Part shown: piece after piece, positions 2,900 through 13,296 of the stretch
Position numbering within the stretch: the first letter of the stretch is position 1
How the letters are laid out: each line of letters begins with the position of its first letter
Source of the DNA: an uncultured Bacilli bacterium
GTDB lineage: Bacteria; Bacillota_I; Bacilli_A; RF39; UBA660
Direction: 5' to 3'
Length of the DNA: 64,000 nt
NCBI GenBank assembly: GCA_947629815.1
Contig: CANRFG010000001.1
Span: forward strand, 27,468-91,467
Made by a program: the position numbers and the translations under genes
Notes under the pieces: generated by a model
Databases searched by the model: none
What the model was told of the DNA's origin: nothing
Seen by the model: the letters and a program-made list of their open reading frames with translations, nothing else

Positions 2900-4846
2900 C
2901 TAATTACTACTTTTTAATTCAAATAATGCATCTCTTAATTCCATTGCTCTTTCAAAGTCTAATTCTGAAGCTGCTTTTTTCATTTCTTCTTCTATTTTAA
3001 TAATTAATTGTTGTTTATCTTTTTTAGACATTTTTTCTTCTGTTTTTATTTCTTCATTATTTGATACTACATCTCTTATTTCTTTTATTATTGTTTTTGG
3101 AGTAATATTATTTTTTATGTTGTATTCGTTTTGTATTGTTCTTCTTCTTTCTGTTTCTTTTATTGCAATATCCATAGATTCACTTATAGTATCTGCATAC
3201 ATTATAACATGTCCTTCGCTATTTCTTGCAGCTCTTCCTATTGTTTGTATTAAACTCCTTGAACTTCTAAGGAATCCTTGTTTATCTGCATCCATTATCG
3301 CTATCAAGCTTACTTCTGGTATATCTAATCCTTCACGAAGTAAATTTATACCTACTAAAACATCATATTTACCTATTCTTAAATCTCTAATTATTTTTAA
3401 TCTTTCTAATGTTTTTACTTCACTATGTAAATAAGCGACTTTTATGTTTAATTTTTTTAAGTAATTTGTTAATTCTTCTGCCATTTTTATTGTAAGTGTT
3501 GTTACTAATGTTCTTTCGTTTTTTTCTATTCTTTTATATATTTGTTCTATTAAATCATCTATTTGATTTTTAGTTGGTTTTACTTCAATTGTTGGGTCTA
3601 ATAATCCTGTTGGCCTTATTATTTGTTCTACTATTCTGTTATTTGATTTTTCTATTTCATATTCATTTGGTGTCGCTGAAACATATATTACATCATCTAT
3701 TTTGCTTTCAAATTCATCAAATTTTAGTGGCCTATTATCTAATGCACTAGGTAATCTAAATCCATAATCAACAAGTACTTGTTTTCTAGCTCTATCTCCA
3801 TTAAACATTCCTCTTACTTGTGGTAGTGTTACATGTGATTCATCTATTACGAGTAAAAAGTCTTTTCCAAAGAAATCCATAAGTGTTGTTGGAGTTTCTC
3901 CTGGTTTCTTTAACGCTAAATGACGAGAATAGTTTTCAACTCCTCTACAAAATCCTGTTTCTGATAATAATTCCATATCATAATTTGTTCTTTCCATTAA
4001 TCTTTGATGTTCGATATATTTGTTTTCTTTTTTAAAGTATTCTAATCTTTCTTGTAATTCTTCATTTATATTTTTAACTGCTTGTTTTAATCTTTCTTCA
4101 CTTGTTACGAAATGACTTGCTGGAAATATTGTAATGCTTTTTTTTACGCTTGTAACTGCTCCTGTTACTGTATCAAATTCGCAAAGTCTTTCTATTTCAT
4201 CTCCAAAAAATTCTATTCTTACTCCTTTGTTGTGAAAACTTATTGGAATTATTTCTATTATATCTCCTCTTACTCTAAATGTTCCTCTTTTAAAGTCTAT
4301 ATTATTTCTTTCATATAGCATATCTATTAATTTTTCTAGTATCTGTTCTCTTTCGATAGTTTGTCCTGTAGATAGTACAAGTAAATGATTTTTATATTCT
4401 TCTATTTCACCTATTCCATATATACATGAAACTGAGGCAACTACTATAACATCTTTACTATTTAAAAGCGCTGCTGTTGCTGAATGTCTTAATTCGTCTA
4501 TTTCATCGTTTATTGATGCATCTTTATCTATATAAGTATCTGTTTTTGCAACATATGCTTCTGGTTGATAGTAATCATAGTATGAAACAAAATATTCAAC
4601 ATGGTTTTCTGGAAATAGTTCTTTTAGTTCTGAATAAAGTTGTCCTGCTAGAGTTTTATTATGAGCAAGTACTAGAGTTGGTTTATTAATTTCTTTAATT
4701 ACATTTGCGATTGTAAATGTTTTTCCTGTTCCTGTTGCGCCTAATAGTACTTGATGTTTTTTTCCTGTTTTTATTCCTTCTACTAATGCTTCTATTGCTT
4801 CTGGTTGGTCTCCACTAGGTTTGTATTTTGAAACTAATTTGAACAT
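2900..4846 (-). CDS. uvrB: Excinuclease ABC subunit B
   Basis: GATGTGKT Walker [28 protein letters not shown]-terminal UVR coil FERAMELRD. Confidence 0.98.
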
Positions 4847-4879
4847 TTTATCACCCGCTTTATAAATTTTTGTAACATT

Positions 4880-4908
4880 ATTTTATCACTTATTATAAAA
4901 CAAAACAA
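4880..4908 (-). promoter_or_regulatory. sigma-A promoter of uvrB
   Basis: TTGTTT-17 bp-TAAAAT with extended TG; same spacing kept in copies 2 and 3. Confidence 0.65.
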
Positions 4909-4931
4909 GAAAACAGATATATGTTTCCTTG
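4897..4931 (-). terminator. Intrinsic terminator overlapping the uvrB -35 box
   Basis: CAAGGAAACA-TATATC-TGTTTTCTTG then TTTTGTTTT; the single mismatch is a G-U wobble only on the minus-strand transcript. Confidence 0.65.
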
Positions 4932-4957
4932 CATTATTTTGAACTTTTTTTGCTATT

Positions 4958-5520
4958 TTATGTTAAAAATCTCTTTACCATAACATTCATATCTAAATCA
5001 TCTAATAATATAGCATTTTTATCTACTAAATTAGCTTTATGTTTAACTCTATCAATATAACTATTCATTTCATTAGTATAATCAATAATTATCTTATTTT
5101 TATCAAAATAGACATTAGATGTAATAATTGTTAATGCGTATCCTAATAACTTTGATACTGCCTTTAAATCAAAATTATTGATTAAAAGTAGAGTAGAATA
5201 AGCATTCCTTAGATCATGAAATCTAATTTTAGGTAAATTATTATCTTCTAATAGTTTTAAATAATACTTTCTGTGAAAATCTTTGCTTCTTGGTTTCCCA
5301 TAAGTAAAACAACATATATAGTTATGGTCATAAAAAGGATTAGTTTTGTCATTTATTCTTCTTTTTTTGTTTTTTTTCATTTTTGTCTTTCACTTATGAT
5401 AGTTTCAAATACCATATCAGGTATATCTAAAACTCTTTCACTATTATAAGATTTTAATTTAACCTCTTGTTTAGTAAACTTTTTTTAGGGCAATCATCTA
5501 TTGTATCATTTGTTTTTCTA
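4958..5520 (-). pseudogene. Tyrosine recombinase/integrase, C-terminal remnant
   Basis: KIRFHDLR (HxxR), KAVSKLLGY (His replaced by Tyr), TSNVY (catalytic Tyr); upstream broken frames read TKQEVKLKSYNSERVLDIPDMVFE; N-terminal half absent. Confidence 0.85.
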
Positions 5521-5525
5521 CCTAG

Positions 5526-5817
5526 TTACATTGTTAAATATAATTTTTTATTTATATAATCATCAGTACCATAATTAAAACCATTAAGGTTATCTTCTAA
5601 TTCAGATTTAGCTGTAAGCATAATTATTTTTACATCAATATTATTTTCTCTAATTATCTTTAAAATTTCAAAACCGCCAATAAAAGGTAAGATCGCATCT
5701 AAAATAATTAAGTTATAAATACCATTTAAAGCTATATCAAGCATATATTTTTCTTTTTTTACCTAGTCGAAATAATATCTCCTAAATTAAATTTATCTTC
5801 AATTATAAGTATCACAT
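5526..5817 (-). pseudogene. OmpR-family response regulator, frameshifted receiver-domain fragment
   Basis: ILIIEDKFNLG..., YNLIILDAILPFIGGFEILKIIR, IIMLTAK, YGTDDYI; broken start and no DNA-binding domain. Confidence 0.8.
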
Positions 5818-5907: not shown

Positions 5908-6237
5908 TTATCCTAATTTATATCCATTCGTAACTTTTTTTATCTAGGGTAATTAAAACAATCCCATCTTTACTATAGATTCCAAGAACTAATACTTCTG
6001 ATAAAAAATCATCAATTTGTTTAGGCGGAGAATTAATTACAGCTAAAACTTGTTTGCCAACTAATTCATTTATAGAATACACTTCTGTTATTTGTGCAGA
6101 AGATTTTTTAATACCAATATTATCTGCGAAATCTATTTCTAATTGATAAGCACTTTTTTAGTTTTTTCAAATACTTTAGCCTTTAGAATAGTCCCTACTT
6201 TATTATCTAATTTTATAAAATCTTCAAATTTAATCAA
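5908..6237 (-). pseudogene. csaA: CsaA/tRNA-binding OB-fold protein with two homopolymer frameshifts
   Basis: MIKFEDFIKLDNKVGTI / AYQLEIDFADNIGIKKSSAQIT...PPKQI...SEVLVLG / VTNGYKLG; -1 at the A6 run 6154-6159 and +1 at the A7 run 5935-5941. Confidence 0.85.
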
Positions 6238-6270: not shown

Positions 6271-6300
6271 GAAAAAGTAGATTAATAAACTAATCTACTT
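6271..6300 (-). terminator. Intrinsic terminator closing the TIR-SPFH operon
   Basis: AAGTAGATTA-6 nt-TAATCTACTT perfect 10-bp stem running into a T tract on the minus strand. Confidence 0.75.
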
Positions 6301-6319
6301 AGTTAAATTTAAAAAGATT

Positions 6320-7519
6320 TTATTTTTTACTTTTAATGATGTTATTACGTTTCTTTATTAATTCTTTTATTTCTGAAGCTACATCTGAATCTATATTTGA
6401 AATTTTATCTTTAATTTCTTTTTCAATATCTTTTACTTCTTCAATAGAAACTGGATCAGAATAACGAATAATCTCTTTTAATTCATATTTATCTTCACTA
6501 TCAACACTATCTAGTATATTTAAAGTTTCCTCAATAAACATGGTTTGTTCTTTTACTTTATTTTCGTATTTTATACTTTGCTTTTTATTTATTTTTAAAA
6601 GAATTCCTAAAACAATATATATTAAGCTTGCAATAATTACTTGGATATAATAAATAACACTATAATTAATTGAGAAATATCCTATAACTAATAAATAAAG
6701 AATTGATACTATATATAATGCTACACTATTTGTTGTAGAATTTAAATTCTCATGTTTATCAATTAATACCATAATTAAATATAAAATGTAAGATATGCTC
6801 ATAACAATAACGATATGTGAATAAAAATAATCAACACCTTTTAAATTAATATTCGAAACACTTTCAGGAACATATATTTTAGAAATATTTTCTAAATCAA
6901 CATTAATACTAGTAACAGTGTAACCATTGATACTTACAGGAATAATAGTAGCATTATTAATACTAATACTTTTTGTTACTTCTATTTCGTCATTTTTTAA
7001 GTTATATTCTACTAAACCATTATAATTACTAAAATCTATATTAGTAGAATCATTTAACATAATAGCATCTACATTATCATCTGCTACTAAAGATTCACAG
7101 TAAGGAGATTTCATACATTCAATTTTGATATTTTCACTTTCAACATTCTTTACTTTATTTGAGATAACAATTGCCTCAATATTTTTGTTTTCAAATAAAC
7201 TATCGTTTATACTAACAACTTGATAACCGTCTATTTTTTCAGGTATAACTAGTTTTTTACTAATACCTGAATAAGAAACAATTTCTATACCGTCATCAGT
7301 TTTATTATATTCAAATTCTTCAATAGCAATATAAAATTCGTCTTCTTCACTTGAAGAAACTTTTTCTAAATTAAGAGAATGTTTATTTGCATATTTAGAA
7401 GCAAAACTATCATCTTTAGCATAAATTGTTAAATCTATTTTTGGAGCATTAAAATTGGTTATCAATAATATAGTTATTAAAATAATAAAGCCAACTAGTG
7501 AGGCAATAACTTTTTTCAT
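6320..7519 (-). CDS. Membrane protein: N-terminal anchor, two BspA/LRR-cap-like extracellular repeats, about 3 TM helices, cytoplasmic YSDP-motif coiled tail
   Basis: Repeats EYNKTDDGIEIVSYSGISKKLVIPEKIDGYQVVSI and EYNLKNDEIEVTK...IIPVSINGYTVTSI; ATG overlaps the SPFH gene stop (TAATG). Confidence 0.75.
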   Translation of the reverse strand: MKKVIASLVGFIILITILLITNFNAPKIDLTIYAKDDSFASKYANKHSLNLEKVSSSEEDEFYIAIEEFEYNKTDDGIEIVSYSGISKKLVIPEKIDGYQVVSINDSLFENKNIEAIVISNKVKNVESENIKIECMKSPYCESLVADDNVDAIMLNDSTNIDFSNYNGLVEYNLKNDEIEVTKSISINNATIIPVSINGYTVTSINVDLENISKIYVPESVSNINLKGVDYFYSHIVIVMSISYILYLIMVLIDKHENLNSTTNSVALYIVSILYLLVIGYFSINYSVIYYIQVIIASLIYIVLGILLKINKKQSIKYENKVKEQTMFIEETLNILDSVDSEDKYELKEIIRYSDPVSIEEVKDIEKEIKDKISNIDSDVASEIKELIKKRNNIIKSKK

Positions 7520-8586
7520 TATTTTACCTTCTTTCCACAACCAGAGCAAAATAATGAATCAGCCTCTAGTTTTCTTCCACAAAATCTACAGAAAGCAACA
7601 CCATTTGTTGTAGTAGCAAAAGCTCCAGTTACAGTATTGGATACTTTTTCACCAATATTACTACTAACTCCACTCATGACACCTAAACCAACACCAATAT
7701 TATTAAGTTGCCCTACAGCTTCGTTTTGAGCCCATGTTTTACTAACATCAAATTGCTTTTCTTCTTGATATGTATATCCTTCTTGCATACGTGCTTGTGC
7801 TTTAGCTTGTGAACCAATGGTTGTCTGTATTGCTTCTTTTTCTGCTTCAATTGTACCTATTTTTTTATCTATTTCGGCATTTGCTAGAACAACACCTTGC
7901 TTAAAGTATAATTCTTTAAATTGTAAATATTGCTTATCTTCCTCAGGCTTTGCAATATTTGTTACAAAGAATTTTTGTAATTTAATACCAAATTCATCAA
8001 AATCTTTTTGTAACATTTCCTTTAAAGTATCACTAATTTCATCTAATCTACTATCAATTTCAAAAATACAAATTTTTTCTTCTTTAATAATGTTTGTTAA
8101 ATAAGATTTAACTTTAACAAGAATTTGTGATGTGAAGAAATCATCGATACTTTCATTATCAAAATGATTTTTAATTCCTACTAATTTGGTAACAATTTTT
8201 CTAGAATCGTCAACTTGAAAACGAACTTCACCACATGCTCCTACTTTAATTGGAAAATTATAAATAGGCTCTAAAAATTCCAATTTAGATGGTGTTCCCC
8301 ATCTAAAGTTTTGAACACTTTTATCGATAAAATAAACATCGCAAGTAAAAGCACTTCTTCCACCAGTTGGAATATTAATAATCGACCTTAAAAGGGGAAT
8401 ATTGCCTGTCTCTAAAGTGTATTTGCCAGGTCCAAATAAATCTAAAGCTTTTCCCATTGAATAAAATAAAGCTTCTTGTGATTCGTCAACAATTAATTTT
8501 GAACCAGTATTAAAATTTCTTCTAGGATATCTAGATACTACAAATTTATCATCCTTAGTTTTTTTTATTACTTCAAAAATTGCCAT
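7519..8586 (-). CDS. SPFH/Band-7 (YdjI-like) protein with C-terminal zinc ribbon
   Basis: GSKLIVDESQEALF...LFGPGKYTLETGNIP, WGTP, coiled region, CRFCG...FCSGCG; RBS AGGAGG. Confidence 0.88.
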   Translation of the reverse strand: MAIFEVIKKTKDDKFVVSRYPRRNFNTGSKLIVDESQEALFYSMGKALDLFGPGKYTLETGNIPLLRSIINIPTGGRSAFTCDVYFIDKSVQNFRWGTPSKLEFLEPIYNFPIKVGACGEVRFQVDDSRKIVTKLVGIKNHFDNESIDDFFTSQILVKVKSYLTNIIKEEKICIFEIDSRLDEISDTLKEMLQKDFDEFGIKLQKFFVTNIAKPEEDKQYLQFKELYFKQGVVLANAEIDKKIGTIEAEKEAIQTTIGSQAKAQARMQEGYTYQEEKQFDVSKTWAQNEAVGQLNNIGVGLGVMSGVSSNIGEKVSNTVTGAFATTTNGVAFCRFCGRKLEADSLFCSGCGKKVK

Positions 8587-8595
8587 AATTACCTC

Positions 8596-10620
8596 CTAAT
8601 TTGCACTTAAATATTTTAAATAAACATCGCTTGCTGCACTGGCACAAACCCACCCTTCGATACCATTTGAAGTTGTTACTTTATACCAATTTCTTTTTTC
8701 CACAACAACTTTATAAGAACCAAAATTATCTGAAAAAATATCATCATTCCATCTTGTTTCAGTTATTTCTTCTATATAAGTATCATTAATGGTGAAAATA
8801 TCGCCTTCTTTTGCGACTGCGAGTGAAGAAGAATTTTTACTATGGTCTTTTCTGATATTTAAAGTTTCGGTTATTACCTCAACTTGATTAACAGATGTAT
8901 CACGACTATTTGAATAATGAAATTTACTAGAACATTCTTCATCATCTTCACCACATATTATTTCATAATCATACCCATTATAGTGATTATAATTTTTCTC
9001 TCCCAAATATAAGTATCCTTCAATACCTTTATTTGTTTTAATTTTTGCAAAGCCATAAAATGATAAATCATCGCTTTGTTTTAATTCATCAAAATCTAAA
9101 ATATCATAATAGTCTCCACCTCTTACAGAAGCTAAAATTTTACTATCTAAATTATCACTAGCATATATTTTTTTATGCCCTAAAACATATATTTGATTTA
9201 CTGAACTATCTTTTCCATTACTTTGACGATAAGGTAAACGATTCCAAATTTTTAATGCAATTAAAGCATATATAATAACTATTATAATTAATAAAATGAT
9301 TGGAACTCTTTTGGTAAATCGATTATCTTTGTTTTTTTCTTTTGCTTTATAATGTTCACGTAAATAATTATTTTTTATAATTTGTTTATCTCTTTCTTCA
9401 GCATTCATAATTGATTTGGATGACATATTTAAATTCCATTTAGGAACAATAAAATATGATACCAAAAGAACAGCAATATCAAGACCATAATCAAGAATAA
9501 AATAGCTAATTTTACCAGGAACCAGATAACTATTCAAATATAAAGCAAATTTTATAGTTAAAGCAAAGATAAGAAATGGTAAAAACTTTTTAGCTATTTT
9601 GTGTGTTTTCCTATGAATAAATAAGCAAGCGACATAACTAGCTAAAAAAAGAATATATAAAAGTGAAACTATGAATAATTCTTTATTATAAGAGAATGAG
9701 ACACGCTCAAAAGTCAATAATGAGACTGGATTACATACAGCAATAACTATCAATTTAAAAAATGAATAAAAGAAGATTGTTACAATACATAATATATAGT
9801 ACCAAACAGGTAAATTTTCTTTAACGATATTTACTTCATATTGACCATTTCCAACACTTCTAGATTCTTCTAAAGCTTTTTGTACTTTGGCAACCGTTTC
9901 AGCATCAATATCATCAACTTCGACATTTTTATATTCATCAACAATTTTTTTTACCCCACGTGTCAAATCTTGGATAGCTCCAACTTTATCCATCGATTGA
10001 GCTTGTAACATAGCAAATTCTTCTGGTAACTTATAAGCATCAATCTTGCTATAAACAGGAATCAAAGTTTTGCCTTTGTCAGTTTCCATCATTTCTAGAT
10101 AACGTCTCCACTCATTTTTTACCCATACAGCATTAAAGTTATCGATATCAGTACCAACGACAAGCATAACTTTAGAACTCTTTAAAGCTGAGTATATATA
10201 TGGTTCATATTCAACACCTAATTTATTTTCTAAAGTTATACGAGCAAAAAAGACTTTTAAGCCAACTGAGGTAAGCTTATCATATATATCTTGAGCAATT
10301 ACTGAATCATGTGTTCTCTCACCATTATTATCAGTTTCCTTATAACAGATAAATACATCGTATGGTTTTTCTTTAGAAGAAATTTTTAAGATACCTTTTT
10401 GTATATCATCTATTTGTTTAGCTTCAGCTTCATATAACGCTAAGGCATCACCATATGAATGTTTTTTTATAATTTTATAATCACTATCAGTAAAAATAGA
10501 ATAATCTCTAGTTCTATGACAAGTTGGTACTTTTTTCTTTGTTTTTGGATCATCGACATATTCAACACCATACTTACAAAGAATCAAACCCCAATGAGCT
10601 TCTACTTGTTTATTGTCCAT
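8596..10620 (-). CDS. TIR-domain membrane protein (TIR, about 5 TM, two SH3b-like domains); ORF downstream of a premature stop
   Basis: YDVFICYKE...KVFFARITLE...WVKNEWRRY (catalytic Glu kept); five hydrophobic segments; SH3b-like repeats ending KIKTNKGIEGYL and YKVTTSNGIEGWV. Confidence 0.88.
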   Translation of the reverse strand: MDNKQVEAHWGLILCKYGVEYVDDPKTKKKVPTCHRTRDYSIFTDSDYKIIKKHSYGDALALYEAEAKQIDDIQKGILKISSKEKPYDVFICYKETDNNGERTHDSVIAQDIYDKLTSVGLKVFFARITLENKLGVEYEPYIYSALKSSKVMLVVGTDIDNFNAVWVKNEWRRYLEMMETDKGKTLIPVYSKIDAYKLPEEFAMLQAQSMDKVGAIQDLTRGVKKIVDEYKNVEVDDIDAETVAKVQKALEESRSVGNGQYEVNIVKENLPVWYYILCIVTIFFYSFFKLIVIAVCNPVSLLTFERVSFSYNKELFIVSLLYILFLASYVACLFIHRKTHKIAKKFLPFLIFALTIKFALYLNSYLVPGKISYFILDYGLDIAVLLVSYFIVPKWNLNMSSKSIMNAEERDKQIIKNNYLREHYKAKEKNKDNRFTKRVPIILLIIIVIIYALIALKIWNRLPYRQSNGKDSSVNQIYVLGHKKIYASDNLDSKILASVRGGDYYDILDFDELKQSDDLSFYGFAKIKTNKGIEGYLYLGEKNYNHYNGYDYEIICGEDDEECSSKFHYSNSRDTSVNQVEVITETLNIRKDHSKNSSSLAVAKEGDIFTINDTYIEEITETRWNDDIFSDNFGSYKVVVEKRNWYKVTTSNGIEGWVCASAASDVYLKYLSAN

Positions 10621-10824
10621 TGATAAAATATTTTCGTAAACTTCTTTAGCTTTATCAAAATCATTATTAATTCTTAAAAAATTAGCTCTATTGTATAGAT
10701 TTACTATTTTCTCATTTTATAAATTTGGAAGGGTCATAACACTTTTACAATACAAACATCTACCAGTATTTGTACCATTAATTGGTTCTATATCTCCCCC
10801 ACACATTTTACACTTAAACAACAT
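10621..10824 (-). pseudogene. Detached N-terminus (Zn ribbon plus TPR start) of the TIR gene, cut by an in-frame TAA at 10717-10719
   Basis: RBS GGAGTG then MLFKCKMCGGDIEPINGTNTGRCLYCKSVMTLPNL*NEKIVNLYNRANFLRINNDFDKAKEVYENIL, in frame with 8596-10620. Confidence 0.88.
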
Positions 10825-10919
10825 ACTATCACTCCAATATTGATATTTTTATCTTACCGTTAAATCATTCATTTGATATGACTAATAAACTATGAAATTA
10901 TACAAATTTATCTAACTAT

Positions 10920-10948
10920 ATTATATCATTCATAGTAAATTTTGTCAG
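10920..10948 (-). promoter_or_regulatory. sigma-A promoter of the TIR operon
   Basis: CTGACA-17 bp-TATAAT with extended TG. Confidence 0.7.
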
Positions 10949-11282
10949 CATATTTCTAAACTTAAATCTTTTACTTTACAAACCTATTATACAATAATTT
11001 AAATAAGAAAATTTATTTACTTATATTTTCTTCATGATTTTTCCACAAAGTATAAATTACATTTATTAACTATTTAATATTAATTATATCATTACTATCA
11101 TATTCTAAGTTTACTAAATTTATTTTTGTTATTGGCAGTACTCGTAAGGTGATTTCAAATTCAGATTAATCAGTAAAGGAAATATTAAATTTACTATAAC
11201 AATTAATAACAATTTTTCAAGTTGCAATACTATCAATAATGTATAATATTTCATTATCGATAGATAAGTGTATTTAATTGCT

Positions 11283-11378
11283 TTAATGTTTTTTTCCTGT
11301 TTTTATTCCTTCTACTAATGCTTCTATTGCTTCTGGTTGGTCTCCACTAGGTTTGTATTTTGAAACTAATTTGAACAT
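11283..11378 (-). pseudogene. uvrB: uvrB N-terminal fragment, 31 codons
   Basis: [31 protein letters not shown], identical to the start of uvrB. Confidence 0.93.
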
Positions 11379-11472
11379 TTTATCACCCGCTTTATAAATT
11401 TTTGTAACATTATTTTATCACTTATCATAAAACAAAACAAGAAAACAGCTATATGTTTCCTTGCATTATTTT
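11286..11472 (-). repeat. uvrB 5' block, copy 2
   Basis: 187 bp matching 4754-4940 with 2 mismatches seen by eye. Confidence 0.95.
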
Positions 11473-11519
11473 TTTTTAAAATTTTATATTAAGCTACTCA
11501 TATAAATATTTTTTTTTAA

Positions 11520-12527
11520 TTATTGATTATTTTCTAATACTTTTTCTACTTCATTTATTAATTGTTCTTTATTAGGTATGTAATAAGTATAAGTTGAAGC
11601 AAAAATATTATTTTCTAAACCACCTAAGGCAAATTCTAAAGCAACTTGGTCTTTTTCAGCGCATAGTATGATACCAATAGGTTTTCCATCGTCTTCTGAA
11701 TTGATTACTTTTTCATAATAATTTAAATACATGTTCATTTGGCCTAAATTTTCTGCTTTTAGTTTATTCATTTTTAAATCTATTAAGACATATGATTTTA
11801 AAAATTTATTATAAAATACCATATCAACATAATAATCAATATTATTGAGTGTGATTCTTTGTTGAGAGCCAACAAACATAAAACCTTTACCAAGTTCTAG
11901 TAAAAAATCTTCTATATGTCTAATTAATTTATATTCTAAATCTTTTTCTAAAAGAGGTTTAGGTTCTTTTATTCCTAAAAACTCAAAGACATATGGTTGT
12001 TTAACAATATCACTAGGTTTACTCAAGATTTGACCTTTTTTGGATAATTCTAAAACTTTTTCTTTATTTACATTTCCATCAGAAAGTAAAAGTCTTTCAA
12101 ATAAAGATGTATCTAATTGTCTTTGTAATTCTCTAACAGACCAATTGGAATTAATACATTCTTTTTCGTAAAAATCTCTTTTATTTTTATCTTTTATAGT
12201 AATTAATTCTACATAATGTGACCAACTTAAATTTTCGTTTATCACATTGTAATCTGGATAAATATTATAAAACCATCTCATATAAGTTAAATTAGTGTAA
12301 GAATATCCTTTTCCTAGCAGTTTAGTTAACTCATTAGATAATTCTTTTAAAACCTCTTTACCATATTCTAATCTGTTATTATCTTCATTTTCGTGTTTTA
12401 CAATAATTTTTCCTATGTTCCAATAAACATAAGTGATAGATTTATTTACTTCTTTCGCCAAATTATTTTTGGCTTCGGTTACTAACTTGCTAATTTCCAA
12501 AGCCATAGTATTATTTTCTTCCAACAT
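11520..12527 (-). CDS. YhcG/DUF1016-family PD-(D/E)XK nuclease-domain protein
   Basis: YWNIGKII, LSWSHYVELI, WSVRELQRQ, KQPYVFEFLG, LLELGKGFMFVGSQ, DMVFYN, IDLK, GQMNMYLNYY; RBS GAAAGGA before MLEENN. Confidence 0.92.
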   Translation of the reverse strand: MLEENNTMALEISKLVTEAKNNLAKEVNKSITYVYWNIGKIIVKHENEDNNRLEYGKEVLKELSNELTKLLGKGYSYTNLTYMRWFYNIYPDYNVINENLSWSHYVELITIKDKNKRDFYEKECINSNWSVRELQRQLDTSLFERLLLSDGNVNKEKVLELSKKGQILSKPSDIVKQPYVFEFLGIKEPKPLLEKDLEYKLIRHIEDFLLELGKGFMFVGSQQRITLNNIDYYVDMVFYNKFLKSYVLIDLKMNKLKAENLGQMNMYLNYYEKVINSEDDGKPIGIILCAEKDQVALEFALGGLENNIFASTYTYYIPNKEQLINEVEKVLENNQ

Positions 12528-12551
12528 TATAAATTTCCTTTCTTTGAATTC

Positions 12552-12567
12552 TTCAGACGCGTCTGAA
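12552..12567. promoter_or_regulatory. Perfect 16-bp GC-rich palindrome in the yhcG-like 5' leader
   Basis: TTCAGACGCGTCTGAA just upstream of the RBS. Confidence 0.45.
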
Positions 12568-12770
12568 AAATCATGAAATATTATCAATAGGATACATATT
12601 TACTACTAATAAAATTATATCAAATTTATCTTTAAAAATCATTCATCTTTATATATTAAAAATATATTTTTTTAACAAATATAATAGGACTTGAATTACG
12701 CCTACAAATTTACTTTGTCCATCTAGTTATTGGTAGTGTTATTTCATTCATTTTTTGGATTTAACAACAC

Positions 12771-13079
12771 TTAAAAAAAAATAAACAACAGGGATTTTAA
12801 ACAATCGTTATAATAACTTACAAAATATTCAACATGATTTTCTGGAAATAGTTCTTTTAGTTCTGAATAAAGTTGTCCTGCTAAAGTTTTATTGTGAGCA
12901 AGTACTAGAGTTGGTTTATTAATTTCTTTAATTACATTTGCGATTGTAAATGTTTTTCCTGTTCCTGTTGCGCCTAATAGTACTTGATGTTTTTTCCCTG
13001 TTTTTATTCCTTCTACTAATGCTTCTATTGCTTCTGGTTGGTTTGCACTAGGTTTGTATTTTGAAACTAATTTGAACAT
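12771..13079 (-). pseudogene. uvrB: uvrB N-terminal fragment (about 90 codons plus unrelated tail)
   Basis: Matches UvrB up to VEYFVSYY then diverges ([12 protein letters not shown]). Confidence 0.93.
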
Positions 13080-13174
13080 TTTATCACCAGCTTTATAAAT
13101 TTTGTAACATTATTTTACAATTTATCATAAAACAAAACAAGAAAACAACTATATGTTTCCTTGTATTATTTTGA
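12820..13174 (-). repeat. uvrB 5' block, copy 3
   Basis: About 355 bp matching 4587-4942 with about 15 differences counted by eye. Confidence 0.95.
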
Positions 13175-13296
13175 TAATTTTTAACGATTTTATTATAAAA
13201 ACTTTTTACCATAAATTTCGTGTTAAATCATTCATGTAGTTAGCAAAAAACTATTACCTGCCTACAACATAATTATTTTAGACATATTTACGCTTT

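What the first reader, a model, noticed from the sequence alone, without database searches (positions are those of the whole stretch)
6271..10948. Candidate undescribed membrane TIR system: Zn-ribbon/TPR-TIR-5TM-2xSH3b, SPFH-Zn-ribbon and LRR-like membrane protein
Seen: one promoter (10920-10948), three tightly coupled genes (AGGAGG RBS; TAATG overlap) and one terminator (6271-6300). Gene 1 has a TIR domain with the catalytic Glu (WVKNEW), five predicted TM segments and two SH3b-like domains, so TIR would be inside and SH3b outside. Gene 2 is SPFH plus zinc ribbon. Gene 3 has two BspA/LRR-cap-like extracellular repeats, TM helices and a YSDP coiled tail. Established: bacterial TIR domains are NADases or signal generators in Thoeris, CBASS and Pycsar; SH3b binds cell wall; SPFH proteins scaffold membrane microdomains, as YdjI does in the Bacillus pspA-ydjGHI envelope-stress operon. 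Inference: a Toll-like-receptor-like transmembrane sensor that couples wall damage or phage attack to NAD+ turnover. It matches no defence system I can name, and it sits in a mobile cassette beside a YhcG nuclease.
Basis: partly seen in the sequence, partly recalled or inferred. Interest (0 to 1): 0.82.

Follow-up and report, generated by a model that had tools for sequence, protein, structure and literature searches.

The report
Membrane TIR receptor with SPFH scaffold operon
This is a decayed copy of a widespread but undescribed three-gene module of gut and rumen bacteria, in which Toll-like (TIR) proteins with swappable sensor domains are always encoded next to a flotillin-like scaffold protein and a small membrane anchor. 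That makes it a good candidate for a new bacterial immune or envelope-sensing system.

Summary
Three tightly coupled minus-strand genes lie between the best promoter match in the region and a hairpin followed by a T-run.

- **Gene 1:** zinc ribbon + TPR + TIR (catalytic-position Glu present) + 5 TM + two SH3b domains.
- **Gene 2:** a soluble YdjI-type SPFH (Band_7_1) protein with a C-terminal zinc ribbon.
- **Gene 3:** a 4-TM protein with a weakly BspA-LRR-like ectodomain and an invariant cytoplasmic "YSDP" tail.

**Linkage elsewhere:**
- Every Bacilli locus with enough contig room keeps the order TIR (1-3 tandem copies), SPFH, YSDP gene.
- In Clostridia, SPFH and the YSDP gene are adjacent, flanked by 1-5 TIR paralogues.
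- Of 45 long loci found through the YSDP gene alone, 43 hold the TIR gene and 41 have SPFH directly upstream.
- Paralogues in one locus share heads that are up to 94-100% identical in several loci, but carry different tails (SH3b, RCC1, WG, BspA-LRR, DUF6273).

No PADLOC or NCBIfam model and no paper I could search describes this module. The closest known system is B. subtilis YdjGHI, but here there is no PspA and a TIR is added.

**Cautions:**
- Function is untested.
- Flanking genes are mostly housekeeping or envelope genes, not a clear defence island.
- The one assayed relative's TIR domain was inactive in vitro.
- In this window gene 1 carries a fixed nonsense codon, in a decaying island inserted at uvrB.

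The parts
10920..10948 (-). Sigma-70-type promoter candidate (CTGACA, 17 nt, TG-TATAAT)
   Evidence: Best match in 4-14 kb, 11 of 12 with an extended -10. It lies about 95 nt upstream of the g1 ATG. Consensus match only.
10717..10824 (-). g1 5' fragment: N-terminal zinc ribbon (MLFKCKMCGG...CLYCKS), 35 codons, ended by an in-frame TAA at 10717-10719
   Evidence: Sequence and translation. Intact homologues read LPN[LI][DE]NEK through this point. The 35-aa ORF plus the 674-aa ORF recur in independent assemblies.
8596..10716 (-). Rest of g1, in the same frame: TPR-like helices, TIR, 5 TM, two SH3b. The first in-frame start codon after the stop is ATG 10620 (674-aa ORF), and it has no SD sequence
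   Evidence: AF2 model of the 62%-identical intact homologue P0003 has pLDDT 86.7.
10003..10356 (-). TIR domain (Pfam TIR_2 match). WVKNEW at 10108-10125, catalytic-position Glu codon at 10111-10113
   Evidence: Pfam 2e-9. Foldseek hits: AbTir 7uxu TMt 0.75, MAL 5uzb 0.73, SPARTA, RPP1. Profile alignment to L6/L7, a TLR and TcpB. Glu invariant in A3 and A4.
9244..9807 (-). Five transmembrane segments of g1, with K/R-rich cytoplasmic loops
   Evidence: Hydropathy with the positive-inside rule. Helices in the AF2 model. 4-5 TM in all Bacilli homologues.
8599..9243 (-). Extracytoplasmic C-terminal region of g1 with two SH3b-like domains (Pfam SH3_3 match at 8638-8865)
   Evidence: Pfam SH3_3 5e-10. 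PDB profile hit on the SH3 repeats of Psm endolysin 4krt. Foldseek 4krt and NlpC/P60-SH3b hits.
7519..8586 (-). g2: soluble SPFH (Band_7_1, 7921-8532) + Gly/Ser-rich linker + C-terminal zinc ribbon (7525-7593). YdjI/SamI-type scaffold
   Evidence: Pfam 2e-39. No TM. 25% identity and E 2e-16 to Bacillus YdjI, with the same architecture.
6320..7519 (-). g3: signal-anchor TM, acidic ectodomain with two BspA-LRR-like units (6830-7435), three TM (6581-6829), cytoplasmic helical tail (6323-6580) with invariant YSDP (6452-6463) ... E ... RN ... K
   Evidence: Alignment A2. AF2 pLDDT 86.6. TpLRR is the top Foldseek hit at E 9e-3. The tail is conserved in about 230-aa Clostridial partners.
6271..6300 (-). 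Intrinsic-terminator-like hairpin followed by a U-run
   Evidence: -9.4 kcal/mol, z = -3.9. Sequence.
4587..4969 (-). uvrB 5' end plus upstream region, the reference copy of a triplicated segment. The other copies are at 11119-11501 and 12820-13201. They bound the island that carries the operon
   Evidence: the repeat finder families D1 and D2. uvrB N-terminal peptides occur three times. Integrase remnant at 4958-5380.

Best explanation
**Shown.** The locus is a now-inactivated copy of a conserved three-component, membrane-proximal module.

**Inferred from the B. subtilis YdjGHI precedent and from conservation patterns.**
- The soluble SPFH/zinc-ribbon protein (g2) oligomerises under the membrane.
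- The 4-TM 'YSDP-tail' protein (g3) holds it there.
- The nearly invariant zinc-ribbon + TPR head of g1-type proteins docks one or several TIR proteins onto that scaffold.

**Shown.** Each TIR protein carries a different C-terminal sensor domain:
- here, five TM segments plus two wall-binding SH3b domains outside the cell;
- in relatives, BspA-type LRR, RCC1 propeller, WG repeats or DUF6273, with one TM or none.

**Inferred mechanism.**
1. Ligand binding or envelope perturbation at the sensor end changes how the TIR domains are packed on the scaffold.
2. TIR-TIR assembly then completes the active site around the conserved Glu.
3. The TIR cleaves NAD+. No separate signal-binding effector is conserved in the module, so the TIR is most likely the effector itself. 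The outcome would be NAD+ depletion and growth arrest, or possibly a nucleotide signal.

**Most likely role.** Conflict or immunity (phage or competitor sensing), with envelope-stress signalling as the main alternative.

**In this window.** The TAA at codon 36 removes the zinc ribbon and breaks the TPR head, so g1 is most probably a pseudogene.
For: **Gene linkage**
- The order TIR, SPFH, YSDP is kept in every Bacilli locus with enough contig room.
- In Clostridia SPFH and YSDP are immediately adjacent, with 1-5 ZnR-TPR-TIR genes beside them.
- A survey seeded with the YSDP gene gave 43 of 45 long loci with the TIR and 41 of 45 with SPFH directly upstream.
- The module also occurs in Chloroflexi and Spirochaetales rumen MAGs.

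**Scaffold analogy**
- g2 matches YdjI: E 2e-16, same SPFH-linker-ZnR layout, no TM.
- The YdjG double zinc ribbon matches the N-terminus of the Clostridial SPFH proteins (tblastn 3e-8).
- The g1 zinc-ribbon head aligns weakly with the YdjG head (hhalign E 1e-3).
- YdjI is soluble and needs the membrane proteins YdjG and YdjH for recruitment (PMC8581546; bioRxiv 10.64898/2026.02.06.704340).

**The head acts as an adaptor**
- ZnR-TPR heads also occur on proteins without a TIR, next to the SPFH-YSDP pair or beside TIR paralogues (L084, L052).
- Tandem paralogues show the following identity:

| Region | Identity between paralogues in one locus |
|---|---|
| Head, residues 1-300 | 53-100%; 94-100% in loci L010, L011 and L036 |
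| Tail, residue 330 to the end | mostly 12-46%; one pair 68% |

**TIR competence**
- TIR fold confirmed.
- Glu at the catalytic position, and WVKNEW invariant.
- The TIR region is 56-70% identical between the window and representatives from both Bacilli and Clostridia.

**Sensor variety:**

**Topology:**

**Pseudogene status:**
Against: - No experiment exists on this module.
- The only assayed relative is the isolated TIR domain of Lachnospira eligens EUBELI_RS07950. It gave no NADase product (PMC9092222 Table S2). Three caveats apply:
  - only 28 of 152 TIRs were active in that assay;
  - that gene is an orphan with no SPFH or YSDP gene within 10 kb;
  - its beta-A motif is divergent.
- Flanking genes are mostly housekeeping or envelope genes. 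Polysaccharide deacetylase is the commonest, at 11 of 148. Only a few are defence hits: AbiLi 3, mad3 5, and generic ATPase cross-hits.
- PADLOC ThsB matches only at E 0.035.
- Physical contacts between head and scaffold, and between tail and scaffold, are inferred from co-conservation. I could not run a multimer prediction.
- The sampled loci are not phylogenetically independent.
Confidence: 0.45

Rival explanations
1. An envelope-stress or cell-wall surveillance module, a PspA-independent relative of YdjGHI/SamGHI. It would monitor wall or membrane state, and the TIR would serve mainly as an assembly or signalling domain rather than a suicide NADase. The output would be physiological adaptation, not immunity.
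For: - Homology to YdjI and to the YdjG zinc ribbons.
- YdjGHI links membrane stress to peptidoglycan synthesis and development.
- SH3b wall-binding domains.
- Neighbours recur as polysaccharide deacetylases, LtaS, glycosyltransferase and ABC exporters.
- Chromosomal, non-viral and non-plasmid location.
- The assayed relative's TIR is inactive.
Against: - No pspA in any of about 170 loci.
- The YdjH-type TPM partner is absent.
- A homeostatic sensor does not obviously need 2-5 tandem paralogues with unrelated sensor domains and homogenised heads.
- The catalytic Glu and its surrounding motif are invariant.
- Distribution is patchy and cross-phylum, and this copy sits on a decaying island. Both fit accessory conflict genes.
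Confidence: 0.25
2. A Thoeris-like signalling system. The TIR makes a nucleotide signal (a cADPR isomer or a conjugate) that activates a separate effector encoded in the module. The effector would be the 4-TM YSDP protein, acting as a membrane-disrupting effector, or the SPFH-ZnR assembly.
For: - TIR with catalytic Glu.
- Many newly defined Thoeris types pair a TIR with TM-helix effectors of unknown fold (bioRxiv 10.64898/2025.12.03.692087).
- The YSDP tail has invariant polar residues (S, D, P, E, R, N, K) that could form a binding site.
Against: - No known signal-binding domain (SLOG, Macro, SAVED, STING, CARF) in g2 or g3.
- The ThsB model matches only at E 0.035.
- The SPFH-YSDP pair also occurs with ZnR-TPR proteins that lack a TIR. 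This fits a scaffold better than a signal-activated effector.
- The systematic TIR survey does not mention SPFH, Band or zinc-ribbon partners.
Confidence: 0.15
3. The TIR is not an enzyme here, and the family is a set of surface or adhesion/recognition proteins. The ZnR-TPR-TIR head would be only a cytoplasmic anchoring or oligomerisation unit on an SPFH microdomain, for example to organise cell-surface binding domains.
For: - The C-terminal domains (SH3b, BspA-LRR, RCC1, WG) are typical binding modules.
- Many animal TIRs are pure adaptors.
- The assayed relative is inactive.
Against: - The Glu and the W-x-x-x-E motif are invariant in the aligned members from both Bacilli and Clostridia.
- Many family members have no TM, so their 'binding' domains would be cytoplasmic.
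- Prokaryotic TIRs with this Glu that have been characterised process NAD+ (established knowledge).
Confidence: 0.1

Closest known systems
Bacillus subtilis PspA-YdjGHI (SamGHI) membrane-stress module
   Same: - A soluble Band_7_1 SPFH protein with a low-complexity linker and a C-terminal zinc ribbon. g2 against YdjI gives 25% identity and E 2e-16.
- A partner membrane protein whose extreme N-terminus is a zinc ribbon. YdjG has MIISYKCPNCG..., g1 has MLFKCKMCGG....
- A second membrane protein with a cytoplasmic helical or low-complexity tail.
- The Clostridial SPFH proteins carry a YdjG-like double zinc ribbon at their N-terminus.
- Tight operon.
   Different: - No PspA in any locus.
- g3 is unrelated to the YdjH TPM domain (hhalign probability 0.1).
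- No NTF2-like YdjG body.
- A TIR domain with variable sensor domains is added, often in several tandem copies.
Thoeris and other TIR-based anti-phage systems (CBASS/Pycsar TIR effectors, SPARTA TIR-APAZ)
   Same: Prokaryotic TIR_2 domain with Glu at the catalytic position and a TIR fold close to AbTir and SPARTA TIRs. The expected logic of oligomerisation-gated NAD+ cleavage is the same.
   Different: - No ThsA-like or other signal-binding effector.
- No cyclase, Argonaute or STAND partner.
- No significant PADLOC match.
- The partner is an SPFH scaffold plus a 4-TM anchor.
- The TIR is fused to a ZnR-TPR head and to TM or ligand-binding tails.
- Not clearly in defence islands.
Animal Toll-like receptors in raft/flotillin microdomains (analogy only)
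   Same: A ligand-binding ectodomain, membrane span(s) and a cytoplasmic TIR. The ectodomain is a genuine LRR in some Clostridial paralogues, such as L040. The module is associated with an SPFH-family scaffold.
   Different: - Orientation is inverted, with the TIR at the N-terminus.
- This copy has 5 TM and SH3b, not 1 TM and LRR.
- The LRR is BspA type.
- No evidence of common descent of the whole architecture.
SPFH cage/ring assemblies that control a client (HflK/C-FtsH; SPFH-NfeD operons)
   Same: An SPFH protein encoded in an operon with membrane partners. The general idea is that an SPFH oligomer confines or organises a client enzyme at the membrane.
   Different: g2 has no TM or NfeD partner. 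The client would be a TIR protein. The oligomeric state of g2 is unknown.
Enterococcus faecium tirE1-hp1-tirE2 cluster (PMC6304867)
   Same: A three-gene TIR operon on an integrase-flanked, low-GC element in a Firmicute.
   Different: The composition differs: two small TIR proteins of 18.5 and 33 kDa and a 55-kDa hypothetical protein. The text search found no mention of SPFH, zinc or transmembrane.

Membership tests
TIR domain NAD+-processing enzymes | TIR (flavodoxin-like) fold | tested here: met
   Pfam TIR_2 2e-9. AF2 model pLDDT 86.7. Foldseek: AbTir 7uxu TMt 0.75, MAL 0.73, MyD88, SPARTA, RPP1.
TIR domain NAD+-processing enzymes | Glutamate at the catalytic position of helix alpha-C (W-x-x-x-E motif) | tested here: met
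   Profile A4 aligns WVKNEW with L6/L7 WCLMEL, TcpB/BtpA WPAREL and a TLR WCQYEL. Invariant in 68 close and 16 diverse sequences.
TIR domain NAD+-processing enzymes | Measured NAD+ cleavage or cyclisation | not testable with these tools
   The only assayed relative, the isolated TIR of L. eligens EUBELI_RS07950, gave 'None' (PMC9092222 Table S2). In that assay 28 of 152 TIRs were active.
Thoeris | ThsB-type TIR protein | tested here: inconclusive
   PADLOC ThsB1 matches only at E 0.035, 11.9 bits.
Thoeris | Adjacent effector with a signal-binding domain (SLOG/Macro or the newer ThsX types) | tested here: not met
   The conserved partners are Band_7_1-ZnR and a 4-TM YSDP protein. Pfam, PADLOC and NCBIfam find no such domain.
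YdjGHI/SamGHI-PspA module | Soluble Band_7_1 SPFH protein with a C-terminal zinc ribbon (YdjI) | tested here: met
   Pfam Band_7_1 2e-39 plus Zn ribbon, no TM. BLASTP against Bacillus YdjI gives E 2e-16.
YdjGHI/SamGHI-PspA module | pspA in the operon | tested here: not met
   tblastn of Bacillus PspA against all fetched loci and the window gave 0 hits.
YdjGHI/SamGHI-PspA module | YdjH (TPM-domain membrane protein) and YdjG (2x ZnR + NTF2-like + TM) | tested here: not met
   g3 against YdjH: hhalign probability 0.1. Only the zinc-ribbon head of YdjG has counterparts.
Bacterial SH3 (SH3b) wall-binding domains | SH3_3 sequence and fold, extracytoplasmic location | tested here: met
   Pfam SH3_3 5e-10. 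PDB profile hit on the SH3 repeats of Psm endolysin. Foldseek hits 4krt and NlpC/P60-SH3b. Location is inferred from the 5-TM topology. Wall binding itself was not tested.
BspA-type LRR (Pfam LRR_5), for the g3 ectodomain | Significant match to LRR_5 or a clear LRR solenoid | tested here: inconclusive
   No Pfam hit at E<0.1. Weak homologues carry PF13306. Foldseek TpLRR 6mlx at E 9e-3 over 85 columns. The ectodomain profile cross-hits LRR_5 proteins in Clostridial loci.
Known or candidate defence systems in PADLOC-DB v2 | Any component matching a model | tested here: not met
   g2 and g3 have 0 families and g1 only the weak ThsB hit. The neighbouring YhcG gene does match candidate PDC-S02 at 5.6e-127.
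Toll-like receptors | N-terminal LRR ectodomain, single TM, C-terminal TIR | tested here: not met
   The window protein is ZnR-TPR-TIR, 5 TM, SH3b. Some paralogues elsewhere have TIR, 1 TM and BspA-LRR, but in inverted order. This is an analogy, not membership.

The most novel reading that the evidence does not exclude
A bacterial counterpart of raft-organised Toll-like receptors. An SPFH ring or cage, tethered by the YSDP membrane protein, would hold an exchangeable array of TIR receptors. Their LRR, RCC1, WG or SH3b sensor domains would recognise phage, competitor or host cues at or across the membrane, and clustering would fire TIR NADase activity. The homogenised heads and cassette-like tails would make this a recombination-diversified receptor repertoire, a new class of prokaryotic innate immune system abundant in gut and rumen Firmicutes.
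Probability: 0.2. Interest if true: 0.9.

Novelty: new variant of a known kind. Interest (0 to 1): 0.72.

Why it matters
- TIR domains and SPFH scaffolds are each central to immunity and membrane organisation across life, but I could find no bacterial system that links them.
- The module is common.
- It is tightly conserved as a three-gene unit.
- It has the constant-head, variable-sensor layout typical of immune receptors.
- If it is a defence or sensing system, it would add a membrane-scaffolded branch to TIR biology. It would give YdjI-type SPFH proteins a defined client. It would also offer a tractable model for how scaffolds gate TIR activation.
- Several cultured strains carry it: Lachnospiraceae NE2001 and AC2031, Ruminococcaceae YRB3002, P. 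capillosus An827, Clostridium sp. AM58-1XD and Eubacterium sp. MSJ-21.
- For this window specifically, it shows a degraded accessory island at uvrB rather than a working system.

Tried and rejected
- **PADLOC and NCBIfam scans of the trio:** nothing usable.
- **Sequence searches of g1 and g2 against the PDB:**
  - a single sequence found only a TPR match for g1, and nothing significant for g2 (best E 0.042);
  - the full-length profile A3 found only SH3 and TPR;
  - a TIR-only profile was needed to place the Glu.
- **E. faecium tirE cluster as a possible identity:** rejected, different composition.
- **Literature searches:** combinations of TIR, SPFH, Band-7, flotillin, zinc ribbon, SH3b and anti-phage found no paper on this module.
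- **Phage, plasmid and viral origin:** no tblastn hit in 50,697 phage or 72,556 plasmid records, and 1 locus in IMG/VR.
- **g3 as a YdjH homologue:** rejected.
- **PspA linkage:** rejected.
- **Genome scan with the broad YSDP alignment A6:** failed for lack of a conserved stretch. The narrower alignment A7 worked but samples only part of the family.
- **L. eligens as an experimental handle:** its assayed gene is an orphan with no SPFH or YSDP gene nearby.
- **Defence-island test on 148 flanking ORFs:** no clear enrichment, and the loci are not independent.

Full report
**1. What is in the window**

Three minus-strand ORFs fill 6320-10824.

*Gene 1.* It starts at ATG 10824 behind a GGAG-type RBS. 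The best promoter-like site of the region lies upstream at 10948-10920: CTGACA, 17 nt, TG-TATAAT, 11 of 12 matches. Promoter-like sites as a class are not above shuffle expectation (77 against 82.5), so position and quality are the only arguments for it.

The first 35 codons encode a zinc ribbon (MLFKCKMCGG...CLYCKS). Codon 36 is TAA (10717-10719). The same frame then continues, and the first in-frame start codon after the stop is ATG 10620, which has no SD sequence. That is the 674-aa ORF. Thirteen aligned homologues read LPN[LI][DE]NEK through this position. The split into a 35-aa and a 674-aa ORF is seen in independent assemblies (2 places shown, 4 contigs on record). So it is a real, fixed nonsense mutation and not a sequencing error.

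*Gene junctions.*
- The gene 2 ATG (8586) follows AGGAGG, which overlaps the gene 1 stop.
- Gene 2 and gene 3 overlap as TAATG.
- Downstream of gene 3 there is a 10-bp A/T-rich hairpin with a U-run at 6271-6300: -9.4 kcal/mol, z = -3.9.

**2. The three proteins**

*Gene 1* (742 codons if read through):
- zinc ribbon;
- one TPR-like unit (PDB consensus-TPR hits);
- helical linker;
- TIR (Pfam TIR_2 2e-9);
- five hydrophobic segments;
- SH3_3 (5e-10).

An AF2 model of the intact, 62%-identical homologue P0003 has mean pLDDT 86.7. Foldseek finds two things:
- tandem SH3b domains, as in phage endolysin Psm (4krt) and NlpC/P60 enzymes;
- TIR domains: AbTir 7uxu at TMt 0.75, MAL 0.73, MyD88, SPARTA TIR-APAZ and RPP1.

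A TIR-only profile aligns WVKNEW with L6/L7 'WCLMEL', Brucella TcpB/BtpA 'WPAREL' and a TLR 'WCQYEL'. The Glu (codon 10111-10113) therefore sits at the position known as catalytic in L6 and BtpA; that last point is established knowledge. The motif is invariant in 68 close and 16 diverse sequences.

Hydropathy with the positive-inside rule puts the K/R-rich loops (HRKTHKIAKK, and residues 462-501) inside. So the TIR is inside and the SH3b pair is outside.

*Gene 2.*
- It is Band_7_1 SPFH (2e-39) plus a Gly/Ser-rich linker and a C-terminal zinc ribbon. It has no TM.
- I fetched a Bacillus pspA-ydjGHI locus using a published ydjG primer sequence. Against its YdjI, gene 2 is 25% identical over the SPFH domain, at E 2e-16, with the same layout.

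*Gene 3.*
- It has no Pfam family.
- Alignment of 12 homologues and an AF2 model (pLDDT 86.6) show these parts: an N-terminal anchor helix, an acidic beta-rich ectodomain with two 'Y.G.S..LVIP..I.G..V' units, three TM helices, and a cytoplasmic helical tail.
- The tail has invariant Y-S-D-P-x-S ... E ... R-N ... K.
- The only structural match is the BspA-type T. pallidum LRR protein, at E 9e-3. The LRR-like label is therefore tentative.

**3. Is the trio a unit?**

Yes.
- In every 'uncultured Bacilli' MAG locus with enough contig room the order is the same: TIR gene (one to three tandem copies), then SPFH, then the ecto+YSDP gene.
- In Clostridia only the ZnR-TPR-TIR head is shared. Even so, an SPFH gene directly followed by a roughly 230-aa 4-TM gene with the same YSDP tail lies beside one to five such TIR genes.
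- I then seeded an independent scan with the YSDP protein. Of 45 loci longer than 12 kb, 43 contain a ZnR-TPR-TIR gene and 41 have SPFH immediately upstream. The hits include Chloroflexi and Spirochaetales rumen MAGs.
- Caveat: the peptide pattern used samples only part of the YSDP family, and the loci are not phylogenetically independent.

**4. Constant head, variable tail**

Clostridial paralogues carry RCC1 repeats, 14 WG repeats, BspA-type LRR_5 or DUF6273 after the TIR, behind one TM or none. Within one locus the identities are as follows.

| Region | Identity between tandem paralogues |
|---|---|
| First 300 residues | 53-100%; 94-100% in L010, L011 and L036 |
| Residue 330 to the end | mostly 12-46%; one L011 pair 68% |

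ZnR-TPR heads also occur without a TIR. One sits next to an SPFH-YSDP pair (L084: a 420-aa ZnR+TPR protein). Another sits beside a ZnR-TPR-TIR paralogue (L052: ZnR-TPR-LRR_5). This pattern suggests the head is an adaptor to the SPFH/YSDP pair and the tail is a sensor.

**5. Relation to YdjGHI**

- In B. subtilis, YdjI is soluble and is recruited by the membrane proteins YdjG and YdjH. YdjG has two N-terminal zinc ribbons (PMC8581546; PMC11237479; bioRxiv 10.64898/2026.02.06.704340).
- The YdjG double zinc ribbon matches the N-terminal extension of the Clostridial SPFH proteins (tblastn down to 3e-8).
- It aligns weakly with the gene 1 head (E 1e-3).
- PspA is absent from every locus, and gene 3 is unrelated to YdjH.
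- So the module works like YdjGHI at the scaffold level, but it is not a member of that system.

**6. Is it a defence system?**

Not shown.

*Against, or neutral:*
- PADLOC and NCBIfam have nothing for the trio.
- It is absent from phage and plasmid records and nearly absent from IMG/VR.
- In four Bacilli contexts the neighbours are prepilin peptidase, iPGM, QueH, polysaccharide deacetylases, MarR/ABC, hrcA-grpE-dnaK, LtaS and DNA ligase.
- Of 148 nearest flanking ORFs, the commonest family is Polysacc_deac_1 (11). Defence-model hits are few and partly generic ATPase cross-hits.
- The isolated TIR of one family member (L. eligens EUBELI_RS07950) gave no product in a lysate NADase assay in which 28 of 152 TIRs were active. 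That gene is a divergent orphan.

*In favour of a conflict role:*
- the invariant catalytic motif;
- the arrays of paralogues with diversified sensors and homogenised heads;
- patchy, cross-phylum spread;
- residence of this copy on an island.

**7. Context in the window**

- The uvrB 5' end plus its upstream region (4587-4969) is repeated at 11119-11501 and at 12820-13201.
- Intact uvrB is 2900-4846. N-terminal fragments lie at 11283-11378 and 12771-13079.
- Two elements therefore sit in tandem at this site:
  - one carries the trio plus remnants of a tyrosine integrase (4958-5380), a response-regulator receiver (5526-5744) and a tRNA-binding domain (5918-6082);
  - the other carries a YhcG/DUF1016 nuclease (11520-12587), which matches PADLOC candidate PDC-S02 at 5.6e-127.
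- GC content does not distinguish the island from its surroundings.

**8. Verdict**

- The best-supported reading is an SPFH-scaffolded, membrane-proximal TIR module with interchangeable sensors. Its TIR is probably an oligomerisation-gated NADase, and it is inactivated in this strain.
- I found no description of it in the searchable literature.

Noticed in passing
window 4587-4969, 11119-11501, 12820-13201: The uvrB 5' end and its upstream terminator/promoter region are present three times. Identity to the first copy is 98% and 85% for the two parts of the third copy, and 62% and 78% for the middle copy. This implies two tandem site-specific insertions into the 5' end of uvrB, each regenerating the target.
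   Followed up: partly
window 11520-12587 (-): A YhcG/DUF1016 PD-(D/E)xK nuclease gene forms its own small cassette between two uvrB repeats. It matches the PADLOC candidate defence family PDC-S02 at E 5.6e-127.
   Followed up: partly
window 4958-5380, 5526-5744, 5918-6082 (-): Three gene remnants lie between uvrB and the operon: the C-terminal part of a tyrosine integrase, a partial response-regulator receiver and a partial tRNA-binding domain. The island is decaying and probably immobile.
   Followed up: partly
L010 7797-11617; L011 4626-9920; L036 880-7769: Tandem ZnR-TPR-TIR paralogues in one locus have 94-100% identical first 300 residues. Their C-terminal regions are far less alike (18-40% for most pairs; 68% for one L011 pair). 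This suggests gene conversion of the head or cassette exchange of the tail.
   Followed up: partly
L039 10829-11059 (inside the SPFH ORF 10706-12556); also L035, L058, L057, L064, L034, L024, L056: The Clostridial SPFH proteins carry an N-terminal double zinc ribbon similar to that of Bacillus YdjG (tblastn down to 3e-8). In effect they are a YdjG-head/YdjI fusion.
   Followed up: partly
L084 11868-13130; L052 3423-5237: ZnR-TPR-headed proteins without a TIR. One lies next to an SPFH-YSDP pair and has a Cys-rich C-terminal 'CYVATAVYGSYDCPQVWTLRRYRD' motif. The other, fused to BspA-type LRR_5, lies beside a ZnR-TPR-TIR paralogue. The scaffold may serve clients other than TIR proteins.
   Followed up: partly
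L127, L134, L139 (Chloroflexi/Flexilinea MAGs); L141 (Spirochaetales MAG): Complete SPFH-YSDP-TIR modules occur in rumen MAGs outside the Firmicutes. This points to horizontal transfer, or possibly to binning error.
   Followed up: no
L080 7835-9253 and 14015-14890; L089 14025-14387; L090 4924-6183: Polysaccharide (peptidoglycan) deacetylase genes recur next to the module in Bacilli MAGs, at 11 of 148 flanking ORFs overall. This may reflect shared synteny among close relatives rather than a functional link.
   Followed up: partly
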